32,000 nt of DNA from Capsulimonadaceae bacterium (GCA_965215505.1 OZ244065.1:5403218-5435217); one strand, 5' to 3'. Positions 4,462-16,793 are shown, counted from the stretch's first letter. The notes: generated from the letters alone by a model not told the origin. Numbers and translations: made by a program.

Positions 4462-6942
4462 TCAGCGCGCGAGGCGGAGGATGGTATACGAGTTCGCCGG
4501 GAAGGCGTAAGCGAACTTCGTGCCCGCCGTCCTGATCACTGCCTCGCGCGTGCGGGTCGTCTCCAGGCCGTCGGGCGGGTTGACGGCCTGCGGGTCCCCT
4601 GCTAAAGTCCACGCCTGCGCCGACGCCCGGCACCCCGCAAACCCTGCCAGGGAGAGGACCGTCCGGCGAGGCGCGGCACCGGGATTGACGACACTGAGGG
4701 TTAGTGTCTTCCCGTCCCGGCTGCGTGTCGCGGTCACGTCCAGATCGCCCCCGCCCTCAACGCTGCTCTGCACAAGCAGGGGCAGGCTGTTCCGGGACGC
4801 CATCTGCTGTGCGTAGTAAGGCGGCATGGCCCAGACATGGTCCGGTGTAAAGAATATCTGCCCCTGGTCCCATCCGTTGTCATTCTGCCGCCACGGCTGC
4901 AAGCAGTTCGCCGGGCAGTCTGCCAAGACGAAGTCCCCATGCCTTCGCACCGCGTTCAGTACGGAAGCATGGCCGAGGGCGCGCTGCATGTCGTGCAGGC
5001 TGCCGTTCTCCTCGAAGATGACGGCGTGCATGGCTGTCCCAAGAACCCACTCCTCGAACCTGCGCTGCATCCGTGTCAACTGCTCGTCAACACCCGCCCC
5101 GGAGCGCACATCGTCCGCCCCGACATGGAGGTCCCAGCAGGCACATTCGCCGTTGATCGCCTTGAACACCTTTTCCACACTGGGCGAGTCCGGACGCCAC
5201 CAGGCCGCGCAGACCAGATTGAGGCGGGAGTCCCGCCCGTGCATCGCTCTGGCGAGCTGCATGAACCGGTCGCTGTAGTGAGCGTAAGCCGCCGGGTCGT
5301 CTCCTCCGAGGACTTCCTCGTTGCCGATCTCGATATAGCGTACATGGTAAGGACGCGGGTGTCCGCCGTCGGCGCGCTTCTTCCCCCATACGGTTGTGGC
5401 GGGGCCATTCACATAATCTACGAGGTCCGCCGCGTCCTGCGGCGTTTCTTCCGCGTTGATGGCGAACGCCGACTCGATGCGGCCCGCCTCGCAGAAGTTC
5501 AGGAAGTCCACGATGCCGAAGCCGTTGGTCGAATACGGATACCAATGTCCCGCATAAGGCGGACGCCGGTCTGGTCCGCCGACCATGTTCTTCCAGCGGT
5601 AGCCGGGTGCGTTGACCATCGTGCCGCCGTAGCGCAGGAACGTCACACCTCCCCGGACTAAAGCATCGGCAATATCTGCGCGGATCGGCAGGCCGTGAAA
5701 TCGCTCTGCCCCGACCCCCATCAGCACCGCCTGGTCGGCCCAAAGAGTTCCGGGGCGGTCGATCCAGACAGCAAAGCGTGCGCTCCTATCCGAAGCGTCC
5801 GATGTCAAGGTGAACGGATACTTCGCCCAATCACCTGTGATGTGGCGGAAGGCACGCGCCGCATAAGTCCTCTTCCCATCCGCGCTCTGCAAAGCGACGG
5901 TGACGGGGCCTTGCAGACCCCGGGCGCGGAAGTAAATTCGTCCCGCGAAGGTCTGCCCCTGTTTGACGGCGATCCCCCAGCGATTCAAGCCCCGGTTGGC
6001 GATTCCCGCCCGGCCCGTTCCAGGCCCATGCTGTATGCGTTGGCAGTACGCCCCGTTAAACGGGCGGCTGTCGTCATGCAGGAAGTTTGCCGCCGCACCC
6101 CCCGTCTGGATGGCGTCCCACCGGCCGCTGACGGAATAACCCGGCAGCGCCTGGAACGGACTTTGGATCACGGCCCGCCCGGTCTGGATGCGTATGTTCT
6201 GATAGCCGGCCTCCGCATTCCAGGTACGCAGGGCCATCCTGCCGGTGAGGATGGGAGCGTCCGTGTCAGTGAAGTCAATGGAAGGGAGGGTGCTGCCCCC
6301 CTCAAAGATGCGTACCCTCGGGCCTTCCAGGACGACCCGCAGGTGATGCCATCGGCCCGCCTCGATGCGCGCCGCCACCGACTCCAGCGGCCGCCAGTCC
6401 TGCCGGTGCTTGCCCAGGATGAGCTGCTGGCTGCTCGCGCTCAGGCTGACCTCGTACCCGGTGAAACTGTCCGCGCCGACGGCGGGGTGCTGGACGCGCA
6501 CGAGCAGCCCGGCATTCCCTCCTCCCGTCCCTGGCATCTCGATGTCGGCCTCGACGGTCCCGTCCGCAAAGTCCGGCCCGTCCCACACCAGCTTCCCACC
6601 CGGATCGGCGGCGACCCGGCAGGCCCGCCCGTCCGCCCGCCACGCGCCGCCGTATGCCGTCCAGCCCGCGAAATTCGTTGCCGCCGGTGGCTCCTCAAAA
6701 CCCTCCCCGAACAGCTTCTGGTCGTACAGGCCGCCATAGATCTCGTGATTGACGTCCTCGATGCATGAACCGTATAGCCAGGGGGTGACGTGGTTGATGA
6801 CGTGCCCGGCGTCTACCATGATGTGGGTTTCCTGGCATCGAGCGGGGGCAGGGACAGCAAGCGCGGCAAACGCCAGGGCCGCGAGGCAAAAAACTTTAAC
6901 TGCCCACTCCCCTGCCGCCTCCTGACACGCGCTCCCCCTCAT
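4462..6942 (-). CDS. secreted GH51-like (alpha-L-arabinofuranosidase-like, clan GH-A) glycoside hydrolase with inserted DUF1080/LamG-like lectin module
   Basis: Signal peptide (..VKVFCLAALAFAALAVPAPA). GH51-type N-terminus LYGSCIEDVNHEIYGGLYDQ. Lectin-like insert GWTAYGGAWRADG...GYEVSLS...WHHLRVVLEG. Catalytic core FLRYGGTMVN, YIEIGNEE, VIFEENGS. C-terminal beta-sandwich PPYYAQQMASR...LDVTATRSRDGKTLTLSVVN...NSYTILRL. ATG 6942 overlaps the upstream stop (ATGA) and has GGGAG about 6 nt upstream. Confidence 0.85.
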   Translation of the reverse strand: MRGSACQEAAGEWAVKVFCLAALAFAALAVPAPARCQETHIMVDAGHVINHVTPWLYGSCIEDVNHEIYGGLYDQKLFGEGFEEPPAATNFAGWTAYGGAWRADGRACRVAADPGGKLVWDGPDFADGTVEADIEMPGTGGGNAGLLVRVQHPAVGADSFTGYEVSLSASSQQLILGKHRQDWRPLESVAARIEAGRWHHLRVVLEGPRVRIFEGGSTLPSIDFTDTDAPILTGRMALRTWNAEAGYQNIRIQTGRAVIQSPFQALPGYSVSGRWDAIQTGGAAANFLHDDSRPFNGAYCQRIQHGPGTGRAGIANRGLNRWGIAVKQGQTFAGRIYFRARGLQGPVTVALQSADGKRTYAARAFRHITGDWAKYPFTLTSDASDRSARFAVWIDRPGTLWADQAVLMGVGAERFHGLPIRADIADALVRGGVTFLRYGGTMVNAPGYRWKNMVGGPDRRPPYAGHWYPYSTNGFGIVDFLNFCEAGRIESAFAINAEETPQDAADLVDYVNGPATTVWGKKRADGGHPRPYHVRYIEIGNEEVLGGDDPAAYAHYSDRFMQLARAMHGRDSRLNLVCAAWWRPDSPSVEKVFKAINGECACWDLHVGADDVRSGAGVDEQLTRMQRRFEEWVLGTAMHAVIFEENGSLHDMQRALGHASVLNAVRRHGDFVLADCPANCLQPWRQNDNGWDQGQIFFTPDHVWAMPPYYAQQMASRNSLPLLVQSSVEGGGDLDVTATRSRDGKTLTLSVVNPGAAPRRTVLSLAGFAGCRASAQAWTLAGDPQAVNPPDGLETTRTREAVIRTAGTKFAYAFPANSYTILRLAR

Positions 6943-8519
6943 GGTTCCGCTCCCTGCTGGAGATCATTCGGCTGCGCCCATGGGGCGGTCCGCAGAACGG
7001 CCCGCATGGCGTCCGGCGTCATGCCCAGCTTATCCGCATTGGTCACCACGTCGCCGAGGTCTACGCCGTACCAGTTACGCTTGTGCGGGTCGGCCAGCCC
7101 GGCGACGTTCAGGCAGGCGATCTCGTCCGCGACCTGGGCACTGAAGCCGGGCCCCGCCGCTCCCCGCCGGACCCGCGCTGCCGCACACCGCAGGTTAGGC
7201 CCAAATTCAGCGTGGCCGGAGGCCAGGAAGCGGGTAACGAGGTGGGGTCGTTCCAACCGCCGGGCCATCTCGCTGTAGCTGGCCGCCGCGAAGTAGAACT
7301 GCGACAGGGCGGCGAAGATGGGGAAACGCGGCATGGCCGCGTAGCAGGCCCCGATGAAGTCCGCCGTCGCGTCCGCCTCTTGCAGTGTCAGTGCGCCGTA
7401 CTCCGCAAGCCTCGTCCCTAGCGTCTCCGTGTCCCAAGTTTCCTCGAAAATGCGCCCCAGGCGCTCGACGCCAAGCAGGGTGAGTGGAATGCCGGTGCTG
7501 AACAGCGGGTCCACGAAGGCCGCCGCCGAGGGCAGCAGCGCCCAACCCGACCCGGCGGCGGTGGGCGCGCGGTATGCGATTCGGGGCGTGTGGGTGAAGG
7601 GCCGCATCGGCACGGCCTCGGCGAACTGCGCGCCAACGGACGGGAATCGTGCCAGGAATCGACACCAGGCTGGCTCGCCTTCCGCTAGGTTTAGCTCTGC
7701 CGCCAGCGCACCCGTGACGGCGATGCCCGCACTCGTGACACCCGTGTCAAAGCGCAGTATCCACATCCATCCGCCCTCAAAGACATGATGCACGGCGGCA
7801 TCGTCGGCGGGGTAGGGGGGCGTGTCTGGATGCGAGAACTCCGGCATCGTGTCGCACCGCCGGACGCCGGCGAAGTGGGAGTAGAGGCTCTGCGTGGCCG
7901 GGTATTCGGCGAAGCCGGCTTCGGGCAGGCCGAGCGCCCTGCTCAGAAACCCGCGTGGCCCCGTCGCATCTATGACCAGCCGCGTCCGCACGGCGAACGC
8001 CTCCCCGGCTCGCTCCCCGGCCACCGTCGCCGTGCCGTCGCCGTGCCACACGGGCGCTGTCAGCGTCACCCCGTCCCAATACTCCGCCCCGACGCCGACC
8101 GCCTCACCCACCAGGAACTCATCCACATCGGCCCGCAGCCAGTGCGTGTCCGCCGCCTCATCGTGCGGGCTGGCCGCGACCATGAGCTGGTCGCTCCGGT
8201 CCGGCGTAGCCCGAAATGCCTGCCCCTGCTCGTGGTGGAAATAAGTAAAACCGCGCTTCAGCCCACAGCCGACATGTGGGTAGGCGCGCTGCCACGGCCC
8301 ATACGCGGACAGCGGCAGCAGGCGGGGGAGGTCATAGCGCGTGGCGAGCTGTTCCAGAAGCAGGTTCGCGAGCGGGGAAGTAGACTCGCCGATGGCGAAG
8401 CGCGGGTGTTTGCCCTTTTCGAGCAGTAGCACGGACAGGCCGATGCGGCGGGCGACCATCGCCAATAGCGAGCCGCCGTAGCCGGAGCCGATGATCGTCA
8501 GGTCATAGTCGGTGTTCAT
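6939..8519 (-). CDS. FAD-dependent oxidoreductase of the flavin-dependent halogenase / geranylgeranyl-reductase-like superfamily
   Basis: N-terminal dinucleotide fold DLTIIGSGYGGSLLA..LLLEKGKHPRFAIGEST.P, as in PltA/CmlS-type halogenases. Partial WxWxIP-type motif EGGWMWILRF. Lies 13 nt downstream of the radical SAM stop. Confidence 0.8.
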   Translation of the reverse strand: MNTDYDLTIIGSGYGGSLLAMVARRIGLSVLLLEKGKHPRFAIGESTSPLANLLLEQLATRYDLPRLLPLSAYGPWQRAYPHVGCGLKRGFTYFHHEQGQAFRATPDRSDQLMVAASPHDEAADTHWLRADVDEFLVGEAVGVGAEYWDGVTLTAPVWHGDGTATVAGERAGEAFAVRTRLVIDATGPRGFLSRALGLPEAGFAEYPATQSLYSHFAGVRRCDTMPEFSHPDTPPYPADDAAVHHVFEGGWMWILRFDTGVTSAGIAVTGALAAELNLAEGEPAWCRFLARFPSVGAQFAEAVPMRPFTHTPRIAYRAPTAAGSGWALLPSAAAFVDPLFSTGIPLTLLGVERLGRIFEETWDTETLGTRLAEYGALTLQEADATADFIGACYAAMPRFPIFAALSQFYFAAASYSEMARRLERPHLVTRFLASGHAEFGPNLRCAAARVRRGAAGPGFSAQVADEIACLNVAGLADPHKRNWYGVDLGDVVTNADKLGMTPDAMRAVLRTAPWAQPNDLQQGAEP

Positions 8520-8532
8520 GGCGCGCGCCGTT

Positions 8533-9573
8533 CTAATTAAGCCTTCGTACAGAAGGGCGGGGGCCCTCCCCTACGCCGCCCGTGTAGGGGCGCGATTCAT
8601 CGCGCCCTCTTGTCTCATCTTCCGCCTGTTCACACTCCGCGCATACCACCAGCGGTGGCACCTGCTGCGTCCGGTTCATCCCGGCCAGCCGCGCCGCGCG
8701 GGCTGGGGAGCAGGCGCAGGTGTAAAACTTCTCGATGTCCCACAGGTCGGCGAAGACGCAGCCCCGTTTTAGCCCAAGGCCGTATTCCTGCACCGCTTCC
8801 AGCGAGGGCAGGGTCGGCGGGGAGTAGTCGCCCGAGGCGGCCAGCGCCTCCATCGCGCCGTTCCCGGCCCGTGTCGGGATGACGCAGCAGACGGACGCGC
8901 CGCCTTCAAAGGCAGCGTCGAGGGAGCGTTTGGCCCAAATGATGCCCTCGGCTTCGGTCAGGAACGGGGGGCGCAGGAGCAGGAAGACGCGCAGGGCGAT
9001 GTCATTATCGGCAAGGAAGGCCGCCGCGCGCTCAAAGTCCGCGACGGTGAACCGCTTGTTCAGCCGGGCCAGGACGTCCGGGTGAACCGTTTCCAGGCCG
9101 ACGGCGACTTCCAGACGCGCGGCCAGCAGATCACGGAAGCGCAGGCAGTGGTCGCCCAGCAGGGCGGGATGGCACTCGACGACCACGCGCTCGAAGCCGC
9201 GCACGGCCTCGGCGATCTCGGCGTAGTCTTCGGGCGGGACGGCCTGCGGGTCGAAGAAGCTGCCCGCGTTGTAGAGCTTGACCTGCCGCGCAGGCGGCAG
9301 CCGGTCGAGCGCATAACGGATTTGCGCGGCGATGGCCCCGCTCGGGACGCGGGTGTCCAGCGTGTTCTGCCATAGATCGCACATCAGGCACCGGTACGGG
9401 CACTCGCGGTTCGTCAGGAAGACCGTCGCCGTCGGGATGGTTCCCCCCAAAGGCCCCGCCTCCTCCTCCCACAAGAAGGCGTAGGAACGCATCGGGTCGA
9501 GCGCGTTCTTCGGGCCGCGCCTCCCAACAATCCAGCGGGTGCGCTCGCTCGGGGAGGCAGGATAGGCGGTCAT
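8533..9573 (-). CDS. radical SAM enzyme (Elp3-like / TIGR01210-RaSEA-like by eye)
   Basis: CxxxCxxC cluster motif in FLTNRECPYRCLMCDLW. KLYNAGSFFDPQAVPPED resembles the SGSFLD motif of the TIGR01210-type group. Start moved to ATG 9573, which forms an ATGA overlap with the upstream AsnB-like stop. The ORF-track start at 9705 would overlap that gene by 136 nt. The C-terminal tail (..RGRDESRPYTGGVGEG..) is translated from a REP-like repeat. Confidence 0.85.
   Translation of the reverse strand: MTAYPASPSERTRWIVGRRGPKNALDPMRSYAFLWEEEAGPLGGTIPTATVFLTNRECPYRCLMCDLWQNTLDTRVPSGAIAAQIRYALDRLPPARQVKLYNAGSFFDPQAVPPEDYAEIAEAVRGFERVVVECHPALLGDHCLRFRDLLAARLEVAVGLETVHPDVLARLNKRFTVADFERAAAFLADNDIALRVFLLLRPPFLTEAEGIIWAKRSLDAAFEGGASVCCVIPTRAGNGAMEALAASGDYSPPTLPSLEAVQEYGLGLKRGCVFADLWDIEKFYTCACSPARAARLAGMNRTQQVPPLVVCAECEQAEDETRGRDESRPYTGGVGEGPRPSVRRLN
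8568..8607. repeat. GTAG-headed palindromic (REP-like) unit
   Basis: CCCCTAC(8568-8574)...GTAGGGGCGCGAttcaTCGCGCCC (8584-8607). Overlaps the 3' end of the radical SAM ORF. Confidence 0.7.
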
Positions 9574-10982
9574 CGGGCGACGGGGAACGGGCGCGACAGG
9601 TCGTTGCCGGAGAAGCGCTCGCCGGCCGGGTCCCATGCTTCGCGCAGGCGGTCCTGCCACTGGCGCAGGAAGACCGACCGGCACCACGCCTTGCTGACGC
9701 GCCACTTGCGGTAGGTGTCGCCGCCTGCCCCGTTTACGTCCCCGCCGACGCCGTCCTGGAACCGGCGCTTGGGCGGGGTGGGCATTGTGATCCCGGTCAC
9801 GGCTAAGACGCCTGCACGGACGATGTCGGCCTTCAAAGTGTACAGCCGCTCGACGCTGCCGTCTAATATCTCCTCGAAGGGAATAGCGAGCGAGGCGGCC
9901 AGGGCCGCCCGGTCGGTGTAGGGGGAGAAAGCATCAAAGCCGAAGTGCTGCCCCGGCGCGTAGGTGCGGACGTAGGAGCGCGACAGGCCGCCCGAGTAGG
10001 TCAGGCTGTGCTTGATGGCGTCCACGCCCCAGCCCTCCTGGTACAGCAAGGGGTTCCGCAGGACGCTGGACAGGGTCAGATCGGAGTCCTCCAGCGGGTA
10101 GTCCTTCAGGTTTTCGTCGCCGCCGTCGCCGTCGAGCAGGTACTTCATCGCCGGGTAGCGGTCGCGGATGCCGCGCAGGAGGCACAGGGCGACGGCGGCG
10201 CACTCGACATCTAAGGGATGGTAGTCCTCGATGACTTGGATGGCTTCTTCCATGTCAACTGACTCGGCACTTGCCTTGACGACTTCCCACTGGCCCGCCA
10301 GCCCCAGTTCACGCACGATGCCTTCGGCCTGGGCGGCGTCCTGGCCGCCGCCGAGGTCCAGGGTGAAGCCGCGGACCATGTCCGGGTCACGGCCCATCAG
10401 CGTCAGGGCGTGGCGGGCCAGCAGGAAGACCGAAGTGCTGTCCACGCCGCCCGAAAAGGCCAGCCCGATCGGCTCGCCCTCGGGGATCGTGCCGAGCCAG
10501 CGCGTCAAGGCTTCCAGGGCCGCCGCGACGTAGGCCGCGCCCAGGGCTTCCACGTCGGCGGGACCCGTGCCGATGGCGGGGTGGAAGAACCGGTGGTAGC
10601 GCGGGGCCGGGTCGGGGCAGCCGATCTGGTCTATCTCGATCAGGTAGTGGGCGGGCACCATGCGCGTGTAGAGCGGGTCGAACTGCCACCCGATCTTCTC
10701 CGAGCGGCACCACTCGAACAGCGAGTCGATGCGGTCCGAGGCGATCAGGAACGGCCCGTGGAACATCTTGGCGACGAAGTAGCGCAGGGGGGCGCCGACC
10801 GTGCGCGCCATCCGCACCGTCTGCCCGTCGCGGGCCGTGGCCGCGAAATGTCCCTGCGCCCGGCCCAAAGTCTCTACATCGCCCGCCCGCACCGCCTCAG
10901 TCAACTGCGTCGGCGTCAAGGCCGGCATCGCGGACTGCTGTGGGCCGACCAGGTCCACCAAACGCTCCACACCTAATAACAT
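9570..10982 (-). CDS. asparagine synthetase B-like ATP-pyrophosphatase (adenylating) enzyme lacking the N-terminal Cys glutaminase nucleophile (beta-lactam-synthetase/lasso-cyclase-like architecture)
   Basis: PP-loop LAFSGGVDSTSVF and AsnB-like LLDGDGGDENLKDY. The N-terminus is MLLGVERL.., not the MCG.. start of glutaminase-active AsnB. A degenerate Ntn-like segment follows (GHFAATARDGQTVRMARTVGAPLRYF..IASDRIDSL). GGAG lies about 10 nt upstream of ATG 10982. Confidence 0.85.
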   Translation of the reverse strand: MLLGVERLVDLVGPQQSAMPALTPTQLTEAVRAGDVETLGRAQGHFAATARDGQTVRMARTVGAPLRYFVAKMFHGPFLIASDRIDSLFEWCRSEKIGWQFDPLYTRMVPAHYLIEIDQIGCPDPAPRYHRFFHPAIGTGPADVEALGAAYVAAALEALTRWLGTIPEGEPIGLAFSGGVDSTSVFLLARHALTLMGRDPDMVRGFTLDLGGGQDAAQAEGIVRELGLAGQWEVVKASAESVDMEEAIQVIEDYHPLDVECAAVALCLLRGIRDRYPAMKYLLDGDGGDENLKDYPLEDSDLTLSSVLRNPLLYQEGWGVDAIKHSLTYSGGLSRSYVRTYAPGQHFGFDAFSPYTDRAALAASLAIPFEEILDGSVERLYTLKADIVRAGVLAVTGITMPTPPKRRFQDGVGGDVNGAGGDTYRKWRVSKAWCRSVFLRQWQDRLREAWDPAGERFSGNDLSRPFPVAR

Positions 10983-11396: not shown

Positions 11397-13337
11397 CTAA
11401 GAAGCGGGCGGCGCTTGGAACCGGCGCACATGATAGGTGGGCAGGCTGCCGAAGTCGCGGGCCAGGTCGAGCGTGCCGATGTACTCGCAGGCGAAGGCGG
11501 GCCGCCACTCCCGCCCCGCCTGTCGGGCCTCATGGGCGGCGGCCTGCTGCTCCGCCGTCAGCAGGGCGGCGAACTGCTCCGAGGCGTAGATGTTGCCCGG
11601 AACCGTGACCGGCTCGATGCGGGCCGCCCGGTTGACGTGCGAGCCGTAGTAGTTGAGCGCGCCGGTGATCGGGTCTATCCCCTCGAAGACCGGCCCGGCG
11701 TGCAGGCCGATGCGGATGCTCATCTCGCGCGGCAGGCCGTACTCGGCCCAGTCGGTGTCGCAGACGACCTCCTGGAGCGCCAGGGCGTATTCGGCCAGCC
11801 GGGTGGCGTCGTCCATCAGGACGAAGATGGCGTCCCCCCAGGTGTTGACGAACCCGTCCGTCGGCGGCAGGCTCCCCGCCACGCGCTCCAGGAAGCTGAA
11901 CATGAAGGCCGGCATCCGGTCCTCCTGGAGCTGGCTGTAGCCGACCACGTCGGCGAAAAGCAGCGTCTTGACCTGACGGCGGATCGCGGCTTCGGTGCGC
12001 GGGGCGTGTGGCTGCGGAAGGTGCGGGGCGGGCGTGACGCCGGGCTGAGACGGGGGGCCGAGCGGGATGACGCGGCGGCGGGCTGGGTCGGGCCAGCCCG
12101 CCACCAGGTCGGCCGTCCCGCCTGCCAATGCGCTCTCCCGGCCGTCCCAGACCGCCAGCAGGACGGGGGCGGCCCCCAGCGGCTGGGCGGCCAGCGTCGC
12201 GTACCCGAGCAGCATCCGGCCCATCCAGGCGAAGAGGCTGTCATCGCCCTGCACCGACTCTTCACTGAGGTACTTGACCGAGGCGGCCCGCCCCAGCGCC
12301 GCCTCGAAACGGGCGACCCACTGCGGGCCGGCATAGCGGACGCTGGCGTCGAGGAAATCAGCCGGGGAATAGGGCAGCACGAGATGGACCTCGGCACCGC
12401 GCGCCTGCATCGCCTCGATGAACAGCAGGTCCGACCCGCAGGCCGCCGAGCAGTAGCCGATCCGGGCGTCCGTCTCCTCCAGGTGCCGGACGATCTCGGC
12501 CCGCACGGCCTCTTCCTGGGACTCGGGGAATCGCGGGACGGCTCGGCCCGGTCGGTCCAGCATGTGGCCGACGAACACCAGTACGGCGGGAGGCGTCATC
12601 ATCTGAAGGAGCGGGTCGGGGACGGGGAACCCGTGGGCGGCCAGGAGTTGGAGCTGCCGGCGGGAGGCGGCGACGGCCCCGTAGCGCCGCCCCGCCAGCG
12701 AGGCGGCGCGCGCGTAAGCCGCCTGCGCTTCCGCCCCCCGGCCGAGCAGCAGGAATGCCTCGCCGCGCGTCGCCCAATGCCAGTACCGGTCGGCTTCGGA
12801 ACCGGGAGCGGCCTGCCCGGTGGCCTCCAGCACCGACCCGGCGAGCCGAGCCGCCTGCGCCCGGTCGCCGACGATCCAGGACAGCGTCGCGGCATTGATG
12901 CCGGTCCAGGAGCCGCCCGACGCCTCGAACCCGCGCCCGTAGGCGTCGCGGGCGCATCGGGCGTCCTCCACCCGCCCCGAACGACGCCACACGTCCTTGT
13001 AGACGCGGGCGATCAGCCCCAGCGTCTCCTCGTCCGCCTCCGCCCCATGGCGCAGGGGCACGCTGTCCCTCCGCATCGGCGCGGGGTAGAGGTCTTCCAG
13101 AACGCCCTGGGCCTCCGCCAGTGCGCCCGCGCGCAGCAGGGCCAGGGCGGTCGCCTGACGCAGCCGCGCGCTGTCCGGGAACCGGCGCAGCGCCTTCTGC
13201 GCCAGGTCGTGCGCCCTAAACGTCTGGCCCTGGTCGAGCATCGTCCGGACCGCCGCCTCGGCCTCCGCCTGGGAAGAAGGAAAGTCGGGCGGCTGCGGCG
13301 AACGGGGATCTAGCGACTGGCTGGGAAGTAAAGGCAT
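11397..13337 (-). CDS. multidomain signalling protein: DUF4071-type (MAP3K TRAFs-binding-like) TPR region + SLOG/LOG-like Rossmannoid module + class III nucleotidyl cyclase domain
   Basis: N-terminal region: EETLGLIARVYKDVWRR and GFEASGGSWTGINAATLSWI, which are DUF4071 signatures as I remember them. Middle region: VLVFVGHMLD..GYCSAACGSDLLFIEA..EVHLVLPY..LLAVWDG..LAGGTADLV. C-terminal region is the class III cyclase: VKTLLFADVVGYSQL, NTWGDAIFVL, IRIGLHAGPV, YYGSHVNRAARIE. Start moved to ATG 13337 (GGAG 6-7 nt upstream), because the 13338-13799 extension overlaps the RyR gene on the other strand. Confidence 0.9.
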   Translation of the reverse strand: MPLLPSQSLDPRSPQPPDFPSSQAEAEAAVRTMLDQGQTFRAHDLAQKALRRFPDSARLRQATALALLRAGALAEAQGVLEDLYPAPMRRDSVPLRHGAEADEETLGLIARVYKDVWRRSGRVEDARCARDAYGRGFEASGGSWTGINAATLSWIVGDRAQAARLAGSVLEATGQAAPGSEADRYWHWATRGEAFLLLGRGAEAQAAYARAASLAGRRYGAVAASRRQLQLLAAHGFPVPDPLLQMMTPPAVLVFVGHMLDRPGRAVPRFPESQEEAVRAEIVRHLEETDARIGYCSAACGSDLLFIEAMQARGAEVHLVLPYSPADFLDASVRYAGPQWVARFEAALGRAASVKYLSEESVQGDDSLFAWMGRMLLGYATLAAQPLGAAPVLLAVWDGRESALAGGTADLVAGWPDPARRRVIPLGPPSQPGVTPAPHLPQPHAPRTEAAIRRQVKTLLFADVVGYSQLQEDRMPAFMFSFLERVAGSLPPTDGFVNTWGDAIFVLMDDATRLAEYALALQEVVCDTDWAEYGLPREMSIRIGLHAGPVFEGIDPITGALNYYGSHVNRAARIEPVTVPGNIYASEQFAALLTAEQQAAAHEARQAGREWRPAFACEYIGTLDLARDFGSLPTYHVRRFQAPPAS

Positions 13338-13376: not shown

Positions 13377-13715
13377 ATGACTGCAAGACCGGAAAAACGC
13401 AAGGCCGCTTTCTCCAAGGCAGCACAGTATGTGCCGGCCCCGCGCGACACCTCCGCCGTCCACCTCACCGCCGAGATGAGCGCCCTGACGGAAGACCTGG
13501 CGAAGAACACGCACGAAGTCTGGGCGGCCCAGCGCATGGCCGAGGGCTGGCGCTACGGGCCGTGCCGGGATGAGGAGCGCATGGAACACCCCGGACTCGT
13601 CCCCTACGAGGACCTGCCCGACTCGGAGAAGGAGTACGACCGCAGCACCGCCCTGGAGACCCTGCGGCTGATCCTCGCCCTGGGCTACAGCATCTGCCGC
13701 GCCGACCCCCCGTGA
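13377..13715 (+). CDS. RyR (ryanodine-receptor repeat) domain protein, 112 aa
   Basis: Close by-eye match to the bacterial RyR domain pattern: LTEDLAKNTHEVWAAQRMAEGWRYGPCRDEERMEHPGLVPYEDLPDSEKEYDRSTALETLRLILALGYSI. There is no clear SD at ATG 13377, so an internal start (MSALTEDL) is possible. Confidence 0.85.
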   Translation: MTARPEKRKAAFSKAAQYVPAPRDTSAVHLTAEMSALTEDLAKNTHEVWAAQRMAEGWRYGPCRDEERMEHPGLVPYEDLPDSEKEYDRSTALETLRLILALGYSICRADPP

Positions 13716-13781: not shown

Positions 13782-13804
13782 GTACCGGAAGAGAAACACA
13801 TCCC

Positions 13805-14683
13805 ATGAACATCCTCGCCAAGTTCAACCTGATGATGGTGACCGTCTTCACGCTCGGGCTGATCGCCGTGTGCCTAGTGACGAACTCGCTGCTCGAAGGC
13901 AACGCCCAGCAGCAGGTCGTGGACAACGCGCGCATCATGATGGAGACCGCCCTCGCGATGCGCCAGTACACCAGCAAGCAGATCAAGCCGCTGCTCGACG
14001 GCCAGAACGTACACGGGTTCCTGCCGCAGACCGTGCCCGCCTATGCGGCCACGCAGGGATTTAATGCATTACGCGAGAAGTACCCCCAGTACACCTACAA
14101 AGAGGCGACGCTCGACCCAACCAACGTCCTGCAAGACAAGGCGACGGACTGGGAGGCGGACGTCGTCAGCCAGTTCAAAAACCAGGGGGAGACCAAGGAG
14201 ATCATCGGCATCCGGCAGAGCGCGACCGGTCCGTCGCTCTACCTGAGCCACCCCATTCGGATCACCGACGCCGCCTGCCTGACCTGCCACAGCACGCCGG
14301 CCGTCGCCCCCGCCTCCATGATCCAGAAGTACGGGCCGGACCACGGGTTCAACTGGCACCAGGGCGACGTGGTCGGGGCGCAGATCGTCTCGGTCCCGAT
14401 GTCGCTGCCCGAGGCCATGGCCCGGCGAGCCTTTCTGGCCGTACTCGGGTCGCTCGTCGCCGCCTTCGCCGTCACCCTGCTCCTGCTCAACGTCATGCTG
14501 ACCCTGCTCGTCATCCGCCCGGTCACACGACTCGCGCGGGTCGCCGACCAGATCAGCCAGGGGAGCCGCGAGGTGGAGGACCTCCCGGTCCGGGGGCATG
14601 ACGAGATCGCCGGGCTGGCCGTGTCCTTCAACCGGATGCAGCGCTCACTCAAGAAGGCCATGACGATGCTGGATGAGGTGTAG
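13805..14683 (+). CDS. membrane sensor: TM - extracytoplasmic DUF3365/Tll0287-like c-type heme domain (CxxCH) - TM - HAMP, with no output domain
   Basis: TM1 is MMVTVFTLGLIAVCLV. DUF3365-like TALAMRQYTSKQIKPLL..FLPQTVPAYAAT. Heme-c motif C-L-T-C-H encoded at 14276-14290. TM2 is FLAVLGSLVAAFAVTLLLLNVMLTLLV. HAMP is IRPVTRLARVADQIS..DEIAGLAVSFNRMQRSL. The protein ends about 10 residues after the HAMP domain. Confidence 0.9.
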   Translation: MNILAKFNLMMVTVFTLGLIAVCLVTNSLLEGNAQQQVVDNARIMMETALAMRQYTSKQIKPLLDGQNVHGFLPQTVPAYAATQGFNALREKYPQYTYKEATLDPTNVLQDKATDWEADVVSQFKNQGETKEIIGIRQSATGPSLYLSHPIRITDAACLTCHSTPAVAPASMIQKYGPDHGFNWHQGDVVGAQIVSVPMSLPEAMARRAFLAVLGSLVAAFAVTLLLLNVMLTLLVIRPVTRLARVADQISQGSREVEDLPVRGHDEIAGLAVSFNRMQRSLKKAMTMLDEV

Positions 14684-14691
14684 GGGGGAAG

Positions 14692-15615
14692 ATGACGCAC
14701 CACGACGTTTTCATCAGCTACTCGACGCTCGACAAGCCGATCTCCGATGCCGTCTGCGCGGCCCTGGAAGGTCAAGGCATCCGGTGCTGGGTGGCCCCGC
14801 GCGACATCACGCCCGGCCAGGACTGGAGCGACGCCATCATTGACGCCATCGCGGACTGCCGCGTCTGCCTCCTGATCCTGTCCACAGCCTCCAATCAGTC
14901 GGACCAGGTCAAGCGGGAGGTGCAGAACGCGGTGAGCGAGGCGAAGCCCATCCTACCGTTCCGCATCGAGGATGTCGCCCTGTCCAAGCACATGCGCTAC
15001 TTCATCGGCACGCCGCACTGGCTGGACGCCCTGACGCCGCCGATGGAGCGCCACCTCCAGAGGATGGTGGAGACGGTGTCCGGATTGATCGCCGCGCTCG
15101 ACGACAAGGCGGGCGAGGCCGAACCGCCCCCCGCCCTGCCGCGCGCCTGTTTCCTCTGGGATGATGCGCGCCTCGCCCGCATCGAGGCCGAATTGCGCCA
15201 GTTCGTGGGGCCGCTGGGCCGCACCCTGGTCGCGGAAGCGGCGGTCGCTGCGAACGGCTACGAAGACCTGGGCCGCCGCCTGGCGGAACACATCCTGTCC
15301 GAACGGGAGCGCGCGACCTTCCTTGCCCGGTGTCAGGCCCTGACGCCCGCCGCCCCACCGCCCGCGTCTCGCCCGGCCCCGGACGCTGAGGTCATCAGCC
15401 CCGAGGCCGTCGCCGCCGCCGAGAAGGCGCTGGCACATTACGTCGGCCCGCTGGCCCGAACGCTGGCGAAACGGGCGGCGCGCACGGCGGCGGGGCCGGC
15501 CGAGTTCTACCGCCTGCTGGCGGATGAACTCCCCGCGCCCGCCGAGAAGGCCGCGTTTCTGGCTCAGTTCCAGGGCGGCAGGGGCGGCGGGGCGGCGGGC
15601 CGGGCGAACAGGTAG
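14692..15615 (+). CDS. TIR-domain protein with two C-terminal ~58-aa tandem repeats
   Basis: TIR_2-type N-terminus DVFISYSTLDKPISDAVCAALEGQGIRCWVAPRDITPGQDWSDAIIDAI..CLLILS..SNQSDQVKREVQNA, with a candidate catalytic Glu at residue 76. Repeats at aa 158-215 and 236-294 (nt 15163-15336 and 15397-15573) share L..(F/Y)VGPL.RTL...A...A.......LA......E...FLA..Q. ATG 14692 lies 8 nt after the sensor stop and has a GGGGGAAG SD. Confidence 0.9.
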   Translation: MTHHDVFISYSTLDKPISDAVCAALEGQGIRCWVAPRDITPGQDWSDAIIDAIADCRVCLLILSTASNQSDQVKREVQNAVSEAKPILPFRIEDVALSKHMRYFIGTPHWLDALTPPMERHLQRMVETVSGLIAALDDKAGEAEPPPALPRACFLWDDARLARIEAELRQFVGPLGRTLVAEAAVAANGYEDLGRRLAEHILSERERATFLARCQALTPAAPPPASRPAPDAEVISPEAVAAAEKALAHYVGPLARTLAKRAARTAAGPAEFYRLLADELPAPAEKAAFLAQFQGGRGGGAAGRANR

Positions 15616-16793
15616 CCCTGCACGAAGTCCGCGCCGTTCGCCTTCGCCCATTCCCATTCTTCGCGGCGCTCGATGCCTTCCGCGACCGTTTTCAGCCCAA
15701 GCCCCTGCGCGGTTTCGAGCAGCTTCCGGGCGACCAGCGCCTTGTCCTTCTCACGGTCCACGCAGTCGAGTAGGGCGCGATCTATCTTGACATAATCCGG
15801 GCGTAGTTCCAACAAAGCAGACAGCGAGGAGTAGCCTGCCCCCACGTCGTCGAGCGCGACACCGAAGCCGTTGTCGCGGTAGTACCCCACAATCCTCTGC
15901 ATCAGTGCCATTTCGGGTAGGTGTTCGCTCTCGATGATCTCGAACACGATGCGCCCACGCTCCAGCCCCAGCTCGTCCACCATGCGGACCGTGCTGTTGA
16001 GACACGAGTGGGGCGAGTAGATCGCATTGGGCGTGAAATTAATGAATGTCTTAGCGGGGAGCCTGTGCTTCGCCGCCGAAACGACGGCCGACCGGCGGGC
16101 GGCGAGGTCGAGCTGGAAGAGCAGGCCCGCCCCGTCCGCCAGGTCGAGCATCAGGCCGGGCGAAACCGCACTCCCCTCGACCTCGGCCCGCATCAGGCAC
16201 TCATGCCCGTGCAGGATGGAAGGGTCCGTACAGTCCAGGATCGGCTGGAAGACCGAATACAGCCGCCCGCCGCGCAGGATGTCCAGCAGCCATTCGCTGC
16301 GTGCCTTGGCGGCGAAGTCGGGCAGCGAGTCGATCTCAAAGCGGTCGCCCCACTGTGGCAGCAGGCCGTCGGGCTGGAAGTGGGCGCGCGCGTCGCGCTG
16401 CTCGGTGGAAGAGAGCCTGGCTATGATCGGGGCCAGCAGCGGCGCGAGGCTTCCGCCCCCGACGCGGACGCGGATCGTCCCCTCCTGCTCCTGGTGGTCC
16501 CAGCGCGACTGGGTCAGAAACTCCAATATCTTGCCGAGCGAGTAGGTGTGAGGCAGACGTATTTCCAGGGTCCCCGGCCCCCGCAAGGGCGTGGGCAGCA
16601 CCTCGCACCTTTGGCAGCCCGGCGCCCCTTCGGGGACGTCTTCCTCATTGGGCAGCGTCATCCCATGATAAACGCCCTCGAGTGCGTCCGCCTTCAACAG
16701 CTCCTCGGCGGGAGTGGTCGGTATGGCCGTCGGCACAGGGCCGTGCGTGTAAATGATCTTGTCCGCGTTCTTCCGATCGGGCATCTCGCCCAT
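15564..16793 (-). CDS. EAL-domain cyclic-di-GMP phosphodiesterase with ~170-aa N-terminal region of unknown function
   Basis: EAL-domain signatures: FQPILD, ECLMR (EALxR position), FINFTPN, FEIIESE, ALDDVGAGYSSL, KIDR, VAEGIE, FVQGYLFARP. The 3' end overlaps the TIR gene's 3' end by 52 nt. Confidence 0.9.
   Translation of the reverse strand: MGEMPDRKNADKIIYTHGPVPTAIPTTPAEELLKADALEGVYHGMTLPNEEDVPEGAPGCQRCEVLPTPLRGPGTLEIRLPHTYSLGKILEFLTQSRWDHQEQEGTIRVRVGGGSLAPLLAPIIARLSSTEQRDARAHFQPDGLLPQWGDRFEIDSLPDFAAKARSEWLLDILRGGRLYSVFQPILDCTDPSILHGHECLMRAEVEGSAVSPGLMLDLADGAGLLFQLDLAARRSAVVSAAKHRLPAKTFINFTPNAIYSPHSCLNSTVRMVDELGLERGRIVFEIIESEHLPEMALMQRIVGYYRDNGFGVALDDVGAGYSSLSALLELRPDYVKIDRALLDCVDREKDKALVARKLLETAQGLGLKTVAEGIERREEWEWAKANGADFVQGYLFARPAAPPPLPPWN

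What the first reader, a model, noticed from the sequence alone, without database searches (positions are those of the whole stretch)
11397..13337. Triple-module cyclase (DUF4071-type TPR + SLOG/LOG-like + class III cyclase) whose base-specifying positions look non-canonical
Seen in the sequence:
- The N-terminal region carries the signatures I associate with DUF4071 / MAP3K-TRAFs-binding-like TPR domains (LGLIARVYKDVW, GINAATL).
- The central module has a Rossmannoid beta-alpha pattern and a GGT.DLV element reminiscent of the LOG/SLOG PGGxGTxxE motif.
- The C-terminal class III cyclase keeps both metal Asp residues (FADVVGYS, WGDAIF) and the transition-state Asn/Arg (HVNRAARIE).
- By eye, the position of the purine-specifying Lys (canonical K-T-x-G-D) reads N-T-W-G-D.
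- By eye, the second specificity position (canonical D/C before G..VN) reads N in LNYYGSHVN.

Established knowledge:
- Lys/Asp specify ATP and Glu/Cys specify GTP in class III cyclases.
- Pycsar pyrimidine cyclases belong to this same fold.
- DUF4071 and SLOG modules were highlighted in comparative-genomic work on nucleotide-centric conflict systems, and DUF4071 is often fused to TIR.

Inference: this is a regulated cyclase that may make something other than cAMP or cGMP.
Basis: partly seen in the sequence, partly recalled or inferred. Interest (0 to 1): 0.75.

Follow-up and report, generated by a model that had tools for sequence, protein, structure and literature searches.

The report
TIR-linked, sensor-gated nucleotide cyclase
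This gene encodes a three-part enzyme (a sensor-type TPR domain, a nucleotide-binding SLOG fold and a cyclic-nucleotide synthase with an unusual base pocket) whose only recurring gene neighbours are TIR immune-signalling enzymes and a ryanodine-receptor-type domain, so it probably converts a TIR-made signal into a cyclic-nucleotide signal, a relay I found described in no paper I could read.

Summary
Window 11397-13337 (minus strand) encodes a 646-aa protein with three domains:
- TPR-S/MAP3K_TRAF_bd, by Pfam.
- A central domain with no Pfam hit. Its confident AlphaFold model matches YpsA, DprA and LOG, so it is a SLOG fold. It carries the YpsA-clade GxD motif.
- A class III cyclase with both metal Asp residues and the transition-state Asn/Arg.

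HMM alignments to solved cyclases put Asn498 at the Lys/Glu position and Asn562 at the Asp/Cys position. This is a family trait: N498 in 80/84 sequences, N562 in 79/84, and Trp500 in all 84.

The family is large (over 2,000 50%-identity clusters) and spans many phyla.

- TIR genes with an intact catalytic Glu are the only recurrent neighbours, in about 20 of 80 loci and often 12-43 bp downstream.
- A RyR repeat is fused or adjacent in 14 of 80 loci.
- The window carries a cassette conserved in relatives: cyclase, divergent from RyR, Tll0287-HAMP and TIR-DUF8082.

Best reading (about 0.5): a Thoeris-like relay. A TIR-made NAD-derived ligand binds TPR-S/SLOG and switches on the cyclase.

The product is undetermined. 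"Not cAMP/cGMP" is possible but unproven. I rate it a new variant of a known kind.

The parts
11397..13337 (-). Complete gene for the 646-aa TPR-S / SLOG / class III cyclase protein (ATG at 13337, stop at 11397-11399)
   Evidence: ORF. Identical 646-aa protein P0001 and 380 homologues. AlphaFold2 full-length model with pLDDT 90.9 and pTM 0.92.
12633..13274 (-). N-terminal all-helical TPR-S domain (aa ~22-235), ASK1/MAP3K5-like
   Evidence: Pfam PF20308 at 3.4e-18 and PF13281 at 1.5e-6. The family profile hits ASK1 structures 5ulm and 8qgy at E 8e-6 and 3e-5. Helices 23-234 in the model.
12048..12599 (-). Central YpsA-like SLOG (Rossmannoid) domain, aa ~247-430. It carries G257-H258, G301-x-D303, E308, W340, R343 and G406-G407-T408.
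   Evidence: No Pfam hit. Model pLDDT 92. Foldseek top hits are YpsA, DprA, LOG and MoCo carrier. Conservation counts. The GxD/E motif defines the YpsA clade (PMC6459960).
11418..11987 (-). C-terminal class III nucleotidyl cyclase domain, aa ~451-640. Metal Asp463 and Asp502; transition-state Asn569 and Arg573; base-pocket Asn498, Trp500 and Asn562.
   Evidence: Pfam PF00211 at 3.9e-12. Alignments to PDB cyclases. Foldseek top hits are CyaB, RhGC, Rv1900c and CyaC. Conservation; coordinates.
11844..11846 (-). Codon of Asn498, at the position of the purine-specifying Lys (adenylyl cyclases) or Glu (guanylyl cyclases)
   Evidence: Asn in 80 of 84 family members and Glu in 4.
11652..11654 (-). 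Codon of Asn562, at the position of the second specificity residue (Asp in adenylyl cyclases, Cys in guanylyl cyclases)
   Evidence: Asn in 79 of 84 family members.
13377..13715 (+). Divergently transcribed 112-aa protein made of a single RyR repeat. It is a partner of the cyclase protein and is fused to its N-terminus in other lineages.
   Evidence: Pfam RyR at 1.7e-33. PDB hits: 3nrt at 1.4e-27 and the RyR1/2 repeats. A RyR domain is fused or adjacent in 14 of 80 related loci and fused in P0098, P0102, P0111 and P0238.
13805..14683 (+). Membrane protein with a Tll0287-like (haem-c CLTCH motif) periplasmic sensor domain and a HAMP domain, but no output domain. A lineage-specific member of the cassette.
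   Evidence: Pfam PF11845 at 2.9e-39 and HAMP at 1.1e-11. CXXCH at aa 158. Conserved next to RyR and TIR in L041, L081 and L082.
14692..15615 (+). TIR-domain protein (TIR_2 plus a C-terminal DUF8082), 8 bp downstream of the HAMP gene. The predicted generator of the NAD-derived signal.
   Evidence: Pfam TIR_2 at 1.4e-22. DUF8082 in the precomputed annotation of its orthologues. The catalytic Glu is kept in this and all 18 partner TIRs aligned.

Best explanation
The gene encodes a soluble, ligand-gated class III nucleotidyl cyclase. It is the receiver of a TIR-generated signal, in a Thoeris-like two-component arrangement whose output is a second, cyclic-mononucleotide messenger.

Proposed steps:
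1. The neighbouring TIR protein has an intact catalytic Glu. In this lineage it sits in one operon with a periplasmic haem-type sensor/HAMP protein and a RyR-repeat protein. On activation it converts NAD+ into an ADP-ribose-derived nucleotide.
2. That ligand is bound by the TPR-S and/or the YpsA-like SLOG domain of the cyclase protein.
3. Binding releases a compact autoinhibited monomer, so the C-terminal domains can form the head-to-tail dimer that class III cyclases need.
4. The dimer makes a 3',5'-cNMP.

The identity of the cNMP is open because the base pocket is Asn/Asn plus an invariant Trp. The cNMP either acts on an unlinked receptor, or its overproduction and the accompanying NTP consumption is itself the effector action.

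Shown here: the domain identities, catalytic competence at the residue level, the non-canonical pocket, and the recurrent linkage to TIR and RyR.

Inferred: the direction of signalling, the ligand, the gating mechanism, the product and the biological role.
For: Domain architecture and catalytic residues:
- Domains established.
- D463, D502 and R573 are invariant and N569 is kept in 73 of 84 sequences.

The SLOG pocket is the most conserved part of the protein:
- D303, F306, E308, L321, P322, W340 and R343 are invariant.
- G257, H258, D261, G301 and G406 are kept in at least 78 of 84 sequences, and G407 in 76.
- This pattern is expected of a specific small-molecule site.

Gene neighbourhood:
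- Among the immediate neighbours of 80 homologous loci from many phyla, the only recurrent family is TIR. It occurs in 16 of 75 downstream genes (10 also match ThsB_TIR) and in 4 of 72 upstream genes.
- Other associated hits are 5 FGE-sulfatase, 2 DUF4062 and 1 LSDAT_prok SLOG.
- Most TIR genes lie 12-43 bp downstream on the same strand.
- The TIR partners come in at least four different architectures and all keep the catalytic Glu.
- TIR and RyR links are spread over many deep branches of one half of the family tree.
- The four-gene cassette is the only thing conserved between the window, L081 (86% identical), L082 (67%) and L041 (62%).
- A stand-alone homologue of the SLOG domain (BLASTP 5e-18) sits about 150 bp downstream of a TIR-nSTAND1-WD40 gene on a Rhizobium plasmid.

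Literature:
- In type I Thoeris a SLOG domain binds TIR-made 3'cADPR and activates the fused effector.
- In type VIII Thoeris the effector ThsI carries the TPR domain that Burroughs and Aravind predicted to sense TIR signals, and it responds to canonical cADPR (10.64898/2025.12.03.692087).
- TIR-Tpr and YpsA-Tpr assemblies are catalogued in 10.1101/2023.05.26.542521.

No cNMP-binding domain was found by Pfam on the window TIR partner. This argues that the nucleotide-sensing domains, and hence the receiving end, are on the cyclase protein (precomputed annotations).
Against: - About three quarters of the 80 loci have no TIR gene within 5 kb. A whole alphaproteobacterial clade (Magnetospirillum, Holosporales) has neither TIR nor RyR nearby. 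The family may therefore also work without TIR.
- The window is not a recognisable defence island. The flanks are glycoside hydrolases, peptidases and ABC transporters.
- The cyclase and most cassette proteins give no or only weak PADLOC hits.
- No family member was found in phage genomes.
- No cNMP receptor is conserved in the neighbourhood, so the output is unexplained.
- Nothing here shows ligand binding, dimerisation or activity.
- The 2020 paper that defined TPR-S could not be read. I could not check whether it assigns another role.
Confidence: 0.5

Rival explanations
1. It is a housekeeping signalling adenylyl cyclase. The TPR-S domain mediates protein-protein contacts and the SLOG domain senses a metabolic nucleotide (NAD, ADPR or a nucleotide pool). 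The product is cAMP for ordinary physiology. The TIR link is a speciality of some lineages, not the core function.
For: - Most loci (about 60 of 80) lack a nearby TIR, and a large alphaproteobacterial clade lacks both TIR and RyR.
- Neighbours include histidine kinases, response regulators, MCPs, STAS and GAF-PP2C signalling genes.
- In this window the cassette contains a classical periplasmic sensor/HAMP protein, and an EAL gene lies next to it.
- The flanks are metabolic genes.
- The best sequence and structure matches are ordinary adenylyl and guanylyl cyclases.
- From my own knowledge, non-canonical specificity pairs occur in true adenylyl cyclases (Rv0386, Rv1900c).
Against: - TIR is the only neighbour family that recurs across phyla. 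It recurs with different architectures and with operon-like spacing.
- TPR-S and SLOG are both domains tied to TIR and NAD-derived signalling in the literature.
- A stand-alone copy of the same SLOG domain follows a TIR-STAND-WD40 gene.
Confidence: 0.22
2. The order is reversed, as in Pycsar and Pucsar. The TPR-S/SLOG-cyclase is the sensor and makes a cNMP that activates the neighbouring TIR as an NAD+-depleting effector.
For: - Cyclase-plus-TIR gene pairs with exactly this logic exist. In PucsarTIR and PycTIR, cGMP, cCMP or cUMP activates a TIR NADase (10.64898/2026.08.12.744502).
- There is a weak PADLOC PycC hit.
- TPR arrays can act as protein sensors.
- A PycTM-type effector gene lies 8.7 kb away in this window.
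Against: - Pycsar and Pucsar TIR effectors carry a cNMP-binding domain. The TIR partners here show only TIR plus DUF8082, a Lys/Arg-rich tail or FGE-sulfatase, with no cNMP-binding domain.
- FGE-sulfatase and variable accessory domains on the TIR protein look like the sensor side, as in ThsB.
- The nucleotide-binding folds (SLOG, TPR-S) are on the cyclase.
- The PycTM gene is not linked to the family in L082 or in any of 80 loci.
Confidence: 0.12
3. The central SLOG domain is an enzyme rather than a sensor, for example a LOG-like N-glycosidase or a nucleotide-processing activity. The protein would then be bifunctional, processing one nucleotide and cyclising another.
For: - Many invariant polar residues lie in the SLOG pocket (H258, D261, D303, E308, R343, D398, T408, D/E410).
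- LOG-family members of the same fold are phosphoribohydrolases. SLOG proteins are predicted to be either sensors or nucleotide-processing enzymes (PMC6459960).
- In the related BcTpr system the domain fused to the TPR is itself a glycosidase that makes a cADPR isomer (10.1101/2023.05.26.542521).
Against: - The closest structural relatives are YpsA and DprA, which are binding proteins, not LOG enzymes.
- The LOG PGGxGTxxE motif is only approximated (AGGTADLV).
- No Pfam LOG or Lysine_decarbox hit.
Confidence: 0.1

Closest known systems
Type I Thoeris effector ThsA (SIR2-SLOG) with ThsB (TIR)
   Same: - A TIR gene lies next to a gene whose product has a SLOG-fold domain fused to an enzymatic output domain.
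- In Thoeris the SLOG binds the TIR-made 3'cADPR and switches on the fused enzyme.
- Ten of 16 downstream TIR neighbours match Pfam ThsB_TIR.
   Different: - The output is a class III cyclase instead of a SIR2 NADase.
- The SLOG is YpsA-like and matches none of the Pfam SLOG models.
- An extra TPR-S domain and a RyR partner are present.
- PADLOC ThsB matches are weak.
- No defence phenotype is known.
Type VIII Thoeris (ThsI) and BcTir/BcTpr: TIR plus TPR-S-containing effectors (the Tpr-centred systems of Burroughs and Aravind 2020)
   Same: - The same kind of sensor TPR (Pfam TPR-S/MAP3K_TRAF_bd), genomically coupled to TIR.
- ThsI responds to canonical cADPR.
- YpsA-Tpr and LSDAT-Tpr assemblies are listed among the known variants.
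   Different: - Those effectors carry a nucleoside-hydrolase/glycosidase domain ('CMP hydrolase').
- None of the papers I could read mentions a cyclase output or a RyR domain.
- I could not align the ThsI or BcTpr sequences directly.
Pycsar / Pucsar antiphage cyclases (PycC, PucC)
   Same: - The class III cyclase fold and the same two-metal chemistry.
- Base-pocket residues that depart from the Lys/Asp or Glu/Cys rule.
- Genomic pairing of a cyclase with a TIR protein.
   Different: - PycC and PucC are mostly stand-alone cyclases whose partners carry cNMP-binding domains. Here the cyclase carries large N-terminal sensor domains and the TIR lacks a cNMP-binding domain.
- The PADLOC PycC score is only 21 bits.
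- The pocket residues differ. BcPycC uses Tyr50/Asp94/Arg97 and PfPucC uses Glu118/Lys195. This family uses Asn498/Trp500/Asn562.
Mycobacterial class III adenylyl cyclases with non-canonical substrate-defining residues (Rv0386 Gln/Asn, Rv1900c Asn/Asp)
   Same: - The class III fold with the Lys and/or Asp replaced by amide residues.
- Rv1900c (1ybt, 1ybu) is among the structural hits.
   Different: - Their residue pairs and activities are from my own knowledge, not verified here.
- None has the Asn/Asn pair plus the invariant Trp, nor the TPR-S/SLOG modules.
ASK1 (MAP3K5) central regulatory TPR region
   Same: - The family profile matches ASK1 structures 5ulm and 8qgy over the TPR-S region.
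- One bacterial relative (P0222) even has a Ser/Thr kinase domain N-terminal to TPR-S, as ASK1 does.
   Different: - ASK1 has no SLOG or cyclase domain.
- The bacterial protein has no kinase domain.
- Sequence similarity is remote (E about 1e-5 with a profile).
YpsA (Bacillus subtilis, PDB 2nx2), founding member of a SLOG clade
   Same: - Best structural match of the central domain (Foldseek E 2e-6).
- Shares the GxD/E motif and the aromatic or His residue in the first loop.
   Different: - YpsA is a stand-alone cell-division-linked protein.
- Sequence identity is only about 15%.
- The central domain is not detected by Pfam DUF1273.

Membership tests
Class III nucleotidyl cyclase (Pfam Guanylate_cyc) | Sequence match to the family model above the curated threshold, and the cyclase fold | tested here: met
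   PF00211 at 46.6 bits against a cut-off of 21.9. Foldseek top hits are all class III cyclases, with TM 0.7-0.79 on the target.
Class III nucleotidyl cyclase (Pfam Guanylate_cyc) | Two metal-binding Asp residues and the transition-state Asn/Arg pair | tested here: met
   D463, D502, N569 and R573 align to the canonical positions. D463, D502 and R573 are invariant and N569 is kept in 73 of 84 family members.
Class III nucleotidyl cyclase (Pfam Guanylate_cyc) | Canonical purine-specifying pair (Lys/Asp for ATP or Glu/Cys for GTP) | tested here: not met
   N498 and N562 occupy these positions in pairwise and profile alignments. They are conserved in 80 and 79 of 84 members. This feature defines substrate classes, not membership of the fold family.
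Class III nucleotidyl cyclase (Pfam Guanylate_cyc) | Dimerisation to form the active site; cyclase activity | not testable with these tools
   Only a monomer could be modelled. No ligand or multimer modelling is available.
SLOG superfamily, YpsA-like clade | The SLOG-type Rossmannoid fold | tested here: met
   The domain model (pLDDT 92.2) has as top Foldseek hits YpsA 2nx2 (2e-6), DprA 5mll/4ljk/3uqz, LOG-family 1rcu/1weh, MoCo carrier 2iz7 and ShosA 8zva.
SLOG superfamily, YpsA-like clade | The GxD/E signature of the YpsA clade, and a Gly-rich loop after a late strand | tested here: met
   G301 (83/84), x, D303 (84/84). G406-G407-T408 in 80, 76 and 71 of 84. Motif definition from PMC6459960.
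SLOG superfamily, YpsA-like clade | Match to a curated SLOG sequence model (Pfam DUF1273/YpsA, LOG, DprA, LSDAT, STALD and others) | tested here: not met
   No Pfam family at E<=10 for aa 225-428. Membership therefore rests on structure and motifs only.
SLOG superfamily, YpsA-like clade | Binding of a nucleotide-derived ligand | not testable with these tools
   Needs binding assays or co-structures.
TPR-S (Pfam PF20308) sensor TPR of TIR-linked systems | Sequence match above the curated threshold | tested here: met
   66.5 bits against a cut-off of 27.6. PF13281 at 27.9 bits against 24.1.
TPR-S (Pfam PF20308) sensor TPR of TIR-linked systems | Genomic association with TIR-domain genes | tested here: met
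   TIR_2 in 16 of 75 downstream and 4 of 72 upstream neighbours, and no other recurrent family. TIR lies within the conserved cassette of the window.
Thoeris-type defence system | A TIR protein with a catalytic Glu, encoded next to an effector that has a signal-binding domain | tested here: met
   The Glu is conserved in the window TIR and in 18 partner TIRs. The effector candidate has SLOG and TPR-S domains.
Thoeris-type defence system | TIR and effector match established Thoeris models, or lie in defence islands | tested here: inconclusive
   Pfam ThsB_TIR matches in 10 of 16 neighbours at E<=1e-4, but PADLOC ThsB hits are weak, at 4e-7 or worse. The cyclase has no Thoeris model hit. The window flanks are metabolic genes.
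Thoeris-type defence system | Protection against phage; TIR-made signal activates the effector | not testable with these tools
   Needs experiments.
Pycsar / Pucsar | Cyclase belongs to the PycC/PucC clade | tested here: inconclusive
   PADLOC PycC at E 3.6e-5 and 21 bits over aa 454-602. It scores better against generic cyclases. No phylogeny with PycC sequences could be made.
Pycsar / Pucsar | Adjacent effector with a cNMP-binding domain (CNBD-TIR or a 3TM PycTM) | tested here: not met
   The TIR partner has no cNMP-binding domain by Pfam. A PycTM-like gene exists 8.7 kb away. It is absent near the cyclase in L082 and in 80 related loci.

The most novel reading that the evidence does not exclude
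The cassette is a bacterial counterpart of two animal signalling axes at once: SARM1/TIR-1 to ASK1, and cADPR to the ryanodine receptor. In this reading both the ASK1-type TPR-S domain and the RyR repeat respond to a TIR-made cADPR-like nucleotide. Together with the SLOG domain they gate a cyclase that emits a second messenger, possibly a non-purine cNMP made in the Asn/Trp/Asn pocket. That would be a two-tier nucleotide relay, NAD-derived signal to cNMP. It would also give the RyR repeat a ligand-linked function for the first time.
Probability: 0.12. Interest if true: 0.85.

Novelty: new variant of a known kind. Interest (0 to 1): 0.6.

Why it matters
TIR signalling systems studied so far end in a killing effector: an NADase, a pore, a nucleotide hydrolase or a caspase. 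A cyclase as the receiver would mean that one second messenger (an NAD-derived nucleotide) is converted into another (a cNMP). That would be a signalling cascade of a kind not yet shown in bacterial immunity or physiology.

The family is large and widespread. It has a fully conserved, non-canonical base pocket (Asn/Trp/Asn), so its product would extend the known rules of substrate choice in class III cyclases.

The recurrent fusion with a RyR repeat and an ASK1-type TPR, next to TIR, offers a simple bacterial system for two questions:
- What do RyR repeats and the ASK1 regulatory TPR bind?
- How did the animal TIR/cADPR/RyR and TIR/ASK1 connections arise?

If instead it is an ordinary regulated adenylyl cyclase, the finding is of modest interest. 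It would still define a new ligand-sensing module for cyclases.

Tried and rejected
- Pfam and NCBIfam on the central module gave no hit, even at E<=10. The fold had to be obtained from a structure model.
- Foldseek with the full-length model returned only cyclases and TPR-plus-Rossmann glycosyltransferases (OGT, SPY). It was uninformative for the middle domain, so I made a domain-only model.
- The exact-sequence contig look-up failed for the window protein and for P0001. I used close homologues instead.
- Pycsar membership rests on a marginal PADLOC hit only, and the effector criterion is not met. I did not file the protein under Pycsar.
- I considered that the orphan PycTM gene 8.7 kb away is the receptor for the cyclase's product. 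The linkage is seen only in a near-identical relative (L081), not in L082 or in 80 other loci. I kept it as a note only.
- I considered the EAL gene, and the Asn-synthase/radical-SAM/halogenase genes downstream, as part of the system. They are not conserved with the cassette in L082.
- Phage genomes gave no homologue. Plasmids gave only partial matches. One of those led to the stand-alone SLOG next to TIR-STAND.
- Literature:
  - Burroughs & Aravind 2020 (J Bacteriol), Burroughs et al. 2015 (NAR) and Sinha et al. 2005 (EMBO J) are not held.
  - The Actinobacteria cyclase survey is held only in part.
  - So the original definition of TPR-S, and the published data on Rv0386 and Rv1900c, rest on my memory or on secondary citations.
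  - Searches for a paper combining TPR-S or SLOG with a cyclase or RyR found none.


Full report
**1. The observation**

The minus-strand ORF ending at 11397 is listed mechanically as 800 aa, starting from a GTG at 13799. That extension overlaps a well-supported plus-strand gene. The database protein identical to the window product (P0001) is 646 aa, and close homologues are 617-657 aa.

All quoted motifs are present at the expected residues.

Pfam gives three above-threshold matches:
- TPR-S (PF20308), aa 43-153, E 3.4e-18.
- MAP3K_TRAF_bd (PF13281, the former DUF4071), E 1.5e-6.
- Guanylate_cyc (PF00211), aa 458-598, E 3.9e-12.

An AlphaFold2 model built on 84 homologues is confident throughout (pLDDT 90.9, pTM 0.92). 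It shows an all-helical N-terminal part (aa 23-234), an alternating beta/alpha middle part (aa 251-425) and a cyclase fold.

**2. The central module**

No Pfam or NCBIfam model matches it, even at E<=10. A domain-only model (aa 236-445, pLDDT 92.2) was compared with the PDB.

- The best match is B. subtilis YpsA (2nx2, E 2e-6, TM 0.63 on the target).
- It is followed by DprA from three species, the LOG-family proteins TM1055 and TT1887, the Chlamydomonas MoCo carrier and ShosA.
- These are exactly the families that make up the SLOG superfamily.
- The YpsA-clade signature GxD/E (PMC6459960) is present as G301-S-D303, and D303 is invariant.

The SLOG call is therefore supported by fold and motif, although not by any curated sequence model.

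The pocket residues of this domain are the most conserved in the whole protein. D303, F306, E308, L321, P322, W340 and R343 are invariant.

A phmmer scan of 1.84 billion representative proteins finds 3,486 clusters with this domain, 2,006 of them at E<=1e-10. Among the top 150 hits it is almost always followed by a cyclase. Variants:
- Ser/Thr kinase + TPR-S + SLOG + cyclase.
- RyR + TPR-S + SLOG.
- An added HATPase_c_2 domain.
- SLOG + cyclase without a detectable TPR-S.

**3. The cyclase and its base pocket**

Pairwise and profile HMM alignments to solved class III cyclases agree.

- D463 and D502 are the two metal ligands. N569 and R573 are the transition-state pair.
- N498 lies four residues before D502. 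That is where mycobacterial Cya has the ATP-specifying Lys and guanylyl cyclases have Glu.
- N562 lies seven residues before N569. That is where adenylyl cyclases have Asp and guanylyl cyclases have Cys.
- So a rigorous alignment does not restore a canonical pair.

Across 84 homologues (37-85% identical to the window protein) the counts are as follows:

| Residue | Conservation |
|---|---|
| N498 | Asn in 80, Glu in 4 |
| N562 | Asn in 79 |
| W500 | 84 of 84; canonical cyclases have Ile or Val here |
| H567 | 80 of 84; canonical cyclases have Asp in 'GDxVN' |

This is a family signature, not a quirk of one sequence.

It does not tell us the product. Asn can pair with several bases. The Pycsar and Pucsar cyclases use other residues: BcPycC uses Tyr50/Asp94/Arg97 and PfPucC uses Glu118/Lys195. 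The PADLOC PycC match is marginal (21 bits). From my own knowledge, adenylyl cyclases with amide residues at these positions exist (Rv0386, Rv1900c). The latter is among the structural hits.

**4. Surroundings**

Divergent from the cyclase, 39 bp away, an operon encodes three proteins:
- A 112-aa single RyR repeat (Pfam 1.7e-33). It is about as similar to the repeats of animal RyR1/2 as to the solved Bacteroides domain 3nrt.
- A membrane protein with a Tll0287-like domain carrying a CLTCH haem-c motif, plus HAMP, but no output domain.
- Eight bases further on, a TIR protein with a C-terminal DUF8082.

The TIR keeps the catalytic Glu.

Comparison of relatives:
- A relative at 86% identity (L081) is syntenic over the whole window.
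- A relative at 67% from another genome (L082) shares only these four genes.
- The 62% relative in a Capsulimonadaceae MAG (L041) has the same RyR, Tll0287-HAMP and TIR genes.

The four-gene cassette is therefore the conserved unit. The EAL gene, the Asn-synthase-like, radical-SAM and halogenase-like genes, and the glycoside hydrolases are not part of it.

**5. The family at large**

A scan of one genome per species found at least 567 loci in Armatimonadota, Spirochaetota, Alpha-, Beta-, Gamma- and Deltaproteobacteria, Cyanobacteria, Verrucomicrobiota, Acidobacteriota, Bacteroidota and others.

I scanned the immediate neighbours of 80 loci against Pfam.
- Downstream: TIR_2 in 16 of 75 (10 also ThsB_TIR) and FGE-sulfatase in 5. 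Three other families occurred twice each and the rest once.
- Upstream: TIR_2 in 4 of 72, DUF4062 in 2, one LSDAT_prok SLOG, and some two-component genes.
- Most TIR genes start 12-43 bp after the cyclase stop codon, on the same strand.
- They come in at least four architectures: a Lys/Arg-rich tail + TIR, TIR + FGE-sulfatase, TIR + DUF8082, and TIR at the start of a 1,672-aa protein. All keep the catalytic Glu.
- A RyR domain is fused to the N-terminus, or encoded next to the gene, in 14 of 80 loci and in several database proteins.

On a neighbour-joining tree, the TIR and RyR links are scattered over many deep branches of one half of the family. They are absent from an alphaproteobacterial clade.

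On a Rhizobium leguminosarum plasmid, a stand-alone homologue of the SLOG domain (BLASTP 5e-18, same motifs) follows a TIR-nSTAND1-WD40 gene. So this SLOG clade is tied to TIR even without the TPR-S and cyclase domains.

**6. Mechanism**

Established knowledge from the papers I could read:
- In type I Thoeris, a TIR makes 3'cADPR, which binds the SLOG domain of ThsA and turns on its SIR2 domain.
- In type VIII Thoeris, the effector ThsI combines a nucleotide-hydrolase domain with the TPR that Burroughs and Aravind predicted to take part in TIR signalling. ThsI is triggered by canonical cADPR.
- TIR-Tpr, YpsA-Tpr and LSDAT-Tpr assemblies are known variants.

The window protein unites both candidate receptor modules (TPR-S and a YpsA-like SLOG) with a catalytically intact cyclase. 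Its partner TIRs carry variable accessory domains typical of the sensing side and no cNMP-binding domain.

I therefore propose this order: TIR, then an NAD-derived ligand, then TPR-S/SLOG, then the cyclase, then a cNMP. Ligand binding would relieve a closed monomer so that the cyclase domains can dimerise. I put confidence in this at about 0.5.

In this lineage the input to the TIR may come through the haem-type periplasmic sensor/HAMP protein. That would make it an environmental rather than a phage-triggered pathway. This is inference only.

The fate of the cNMP is unknown. No receptor is conserved nearby. Either an unlinked receptor reads it, or a burst of cNMP with NTP drain is itself the effect.

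**7. Rivals**

- An ordinary regulated adenylyl cyclase whose TIR link is lineage-specific (0.22). Supported by the TIR-less majority of loci and the non-defence flanks.
- The reverse, Pycsar/Pucsar-like order in which the cNMP activates the TIR (0.12). Weakened by the lack of a cNMP-binding domain on the TIR proteins.
- An enzymatic rather than sensory SLOG (0.10).

The question of the product is orthogonal to these. I give about 0.2 to a main product other than cAMP or cGMP.

**8. Novelty**

Each domain is known. The TIR/TPR-S logic was predicted in 2020 and has since been demonstrated for other effectors.

I found no paper describing a class III cyclase as the output of such a system, nor the RyR association, nor the Asn/Trp/Asn pocket. 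However, the defining 2020 paper could not be read.

I therefore rate it a new variant of a known kind, with interest 0.6.

Noticed in passing
window 22024-22680 (+): An orphan Pycsar-type transmembrane effector gene: Pfam PycTM at 2.8e-16, PADLOC PycTM at 2.8e-22, and CBASS 2TM effector models. No cyclase gene lies next to it; GH39 is upstream and an ABC permease is downstream. The only cyclase in the window is the TPR-S/SLOG cyclase 8.7 kb away. The arrangement is kept in the 86%-identical relative L081, but not in L082 or in 80 other loci.
   Followed up: partly
window 13805-14683 (+): A membrane protein with a Tll0287-like periplasmic domain (CLTCH haem-c motif at aa 158) and a HAMP domain that ends without any output domain. 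It is translationally close (8 bp) to the TIR gene, and is conserved with it in L041, L081 and L082. A HAMP-only sensor feeding a TIR enzyme would be unusual.
   Followed up: partly
window 14692-15615 (+), C-terminal half (aa ~150-307): The TIR protein's C-terminal region consists of two similar Ala-rich helical segments of about 55 aa ('FVGPLGRTLV...' and 'YVGPLARTLA...'). It is annotated in orthologues as DUF8082, of unknown function. The gene's 3' end overlaps the convergent EAL gene (15564-16793) by about 50 bp.
   Followed up: no
P0222 (925 aa): A family member with a Ser/Thr protein kinase domain N-terminal to TPR-S, SLOG and cyclase. This is the kinase-plus-TPR-S arrangement of animal ASK1/MAP3K5, here in a bacterial protein.
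   Followed up: no
L083 (Rhizobium leguminosarum plasmid pRL31b3), 1460-5881 and 6031-6558: A TIR-nSTAND1-WD40 protein (1,473 aa) is followed, after about 150 bp, by a stand-alone homologue of the window's SLOG domain, annotated as a hypothetical protein. A second TIR gene and an IS110 transposase lie nearby. It looks like an NLR-type immune locus with a SLOG partner.
   Followed up: partly
window 6939-10982 (-): Directly downstream of the cyclase lies a run of three genes: Asn-synthase-like (9570-10982), radical-SAM-like (8533-9705, below the Pfam threshold) and Trp-halogenase/FAD-type (6939-8519). They may form a small biosynthetic cluster. In L081 an extra 917-aa gene without Pfam hits sits between the cyclase and the Asn-synthase gene.
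   Followed up: no
L084 (Caballeronia plasmid pSBC2-4), 59-1792 and 3770-6924: A more distant TPR-S/cyclase family member overlaps by 4 bp an upstream 463-aa gene without Pfam hits. A DUF4231-containing protein is encoded 3.4 kb upstream on the other strand; I recall DUF4231 as a SLATT-type domain but did not check this.
   Followed up: no
L056, L057, L067, L070 (Opitutia), genes directly downstream of the cyclase: The TIR partners in this clade are about 490-500 aa. FGE-sulfatase domains were found in five downstream neighbours, which fits TIR + FGE-sulfatase fusions. FGE-sulfatase domains are used as ligand sensors in other conflict systems.
   Followed up: no
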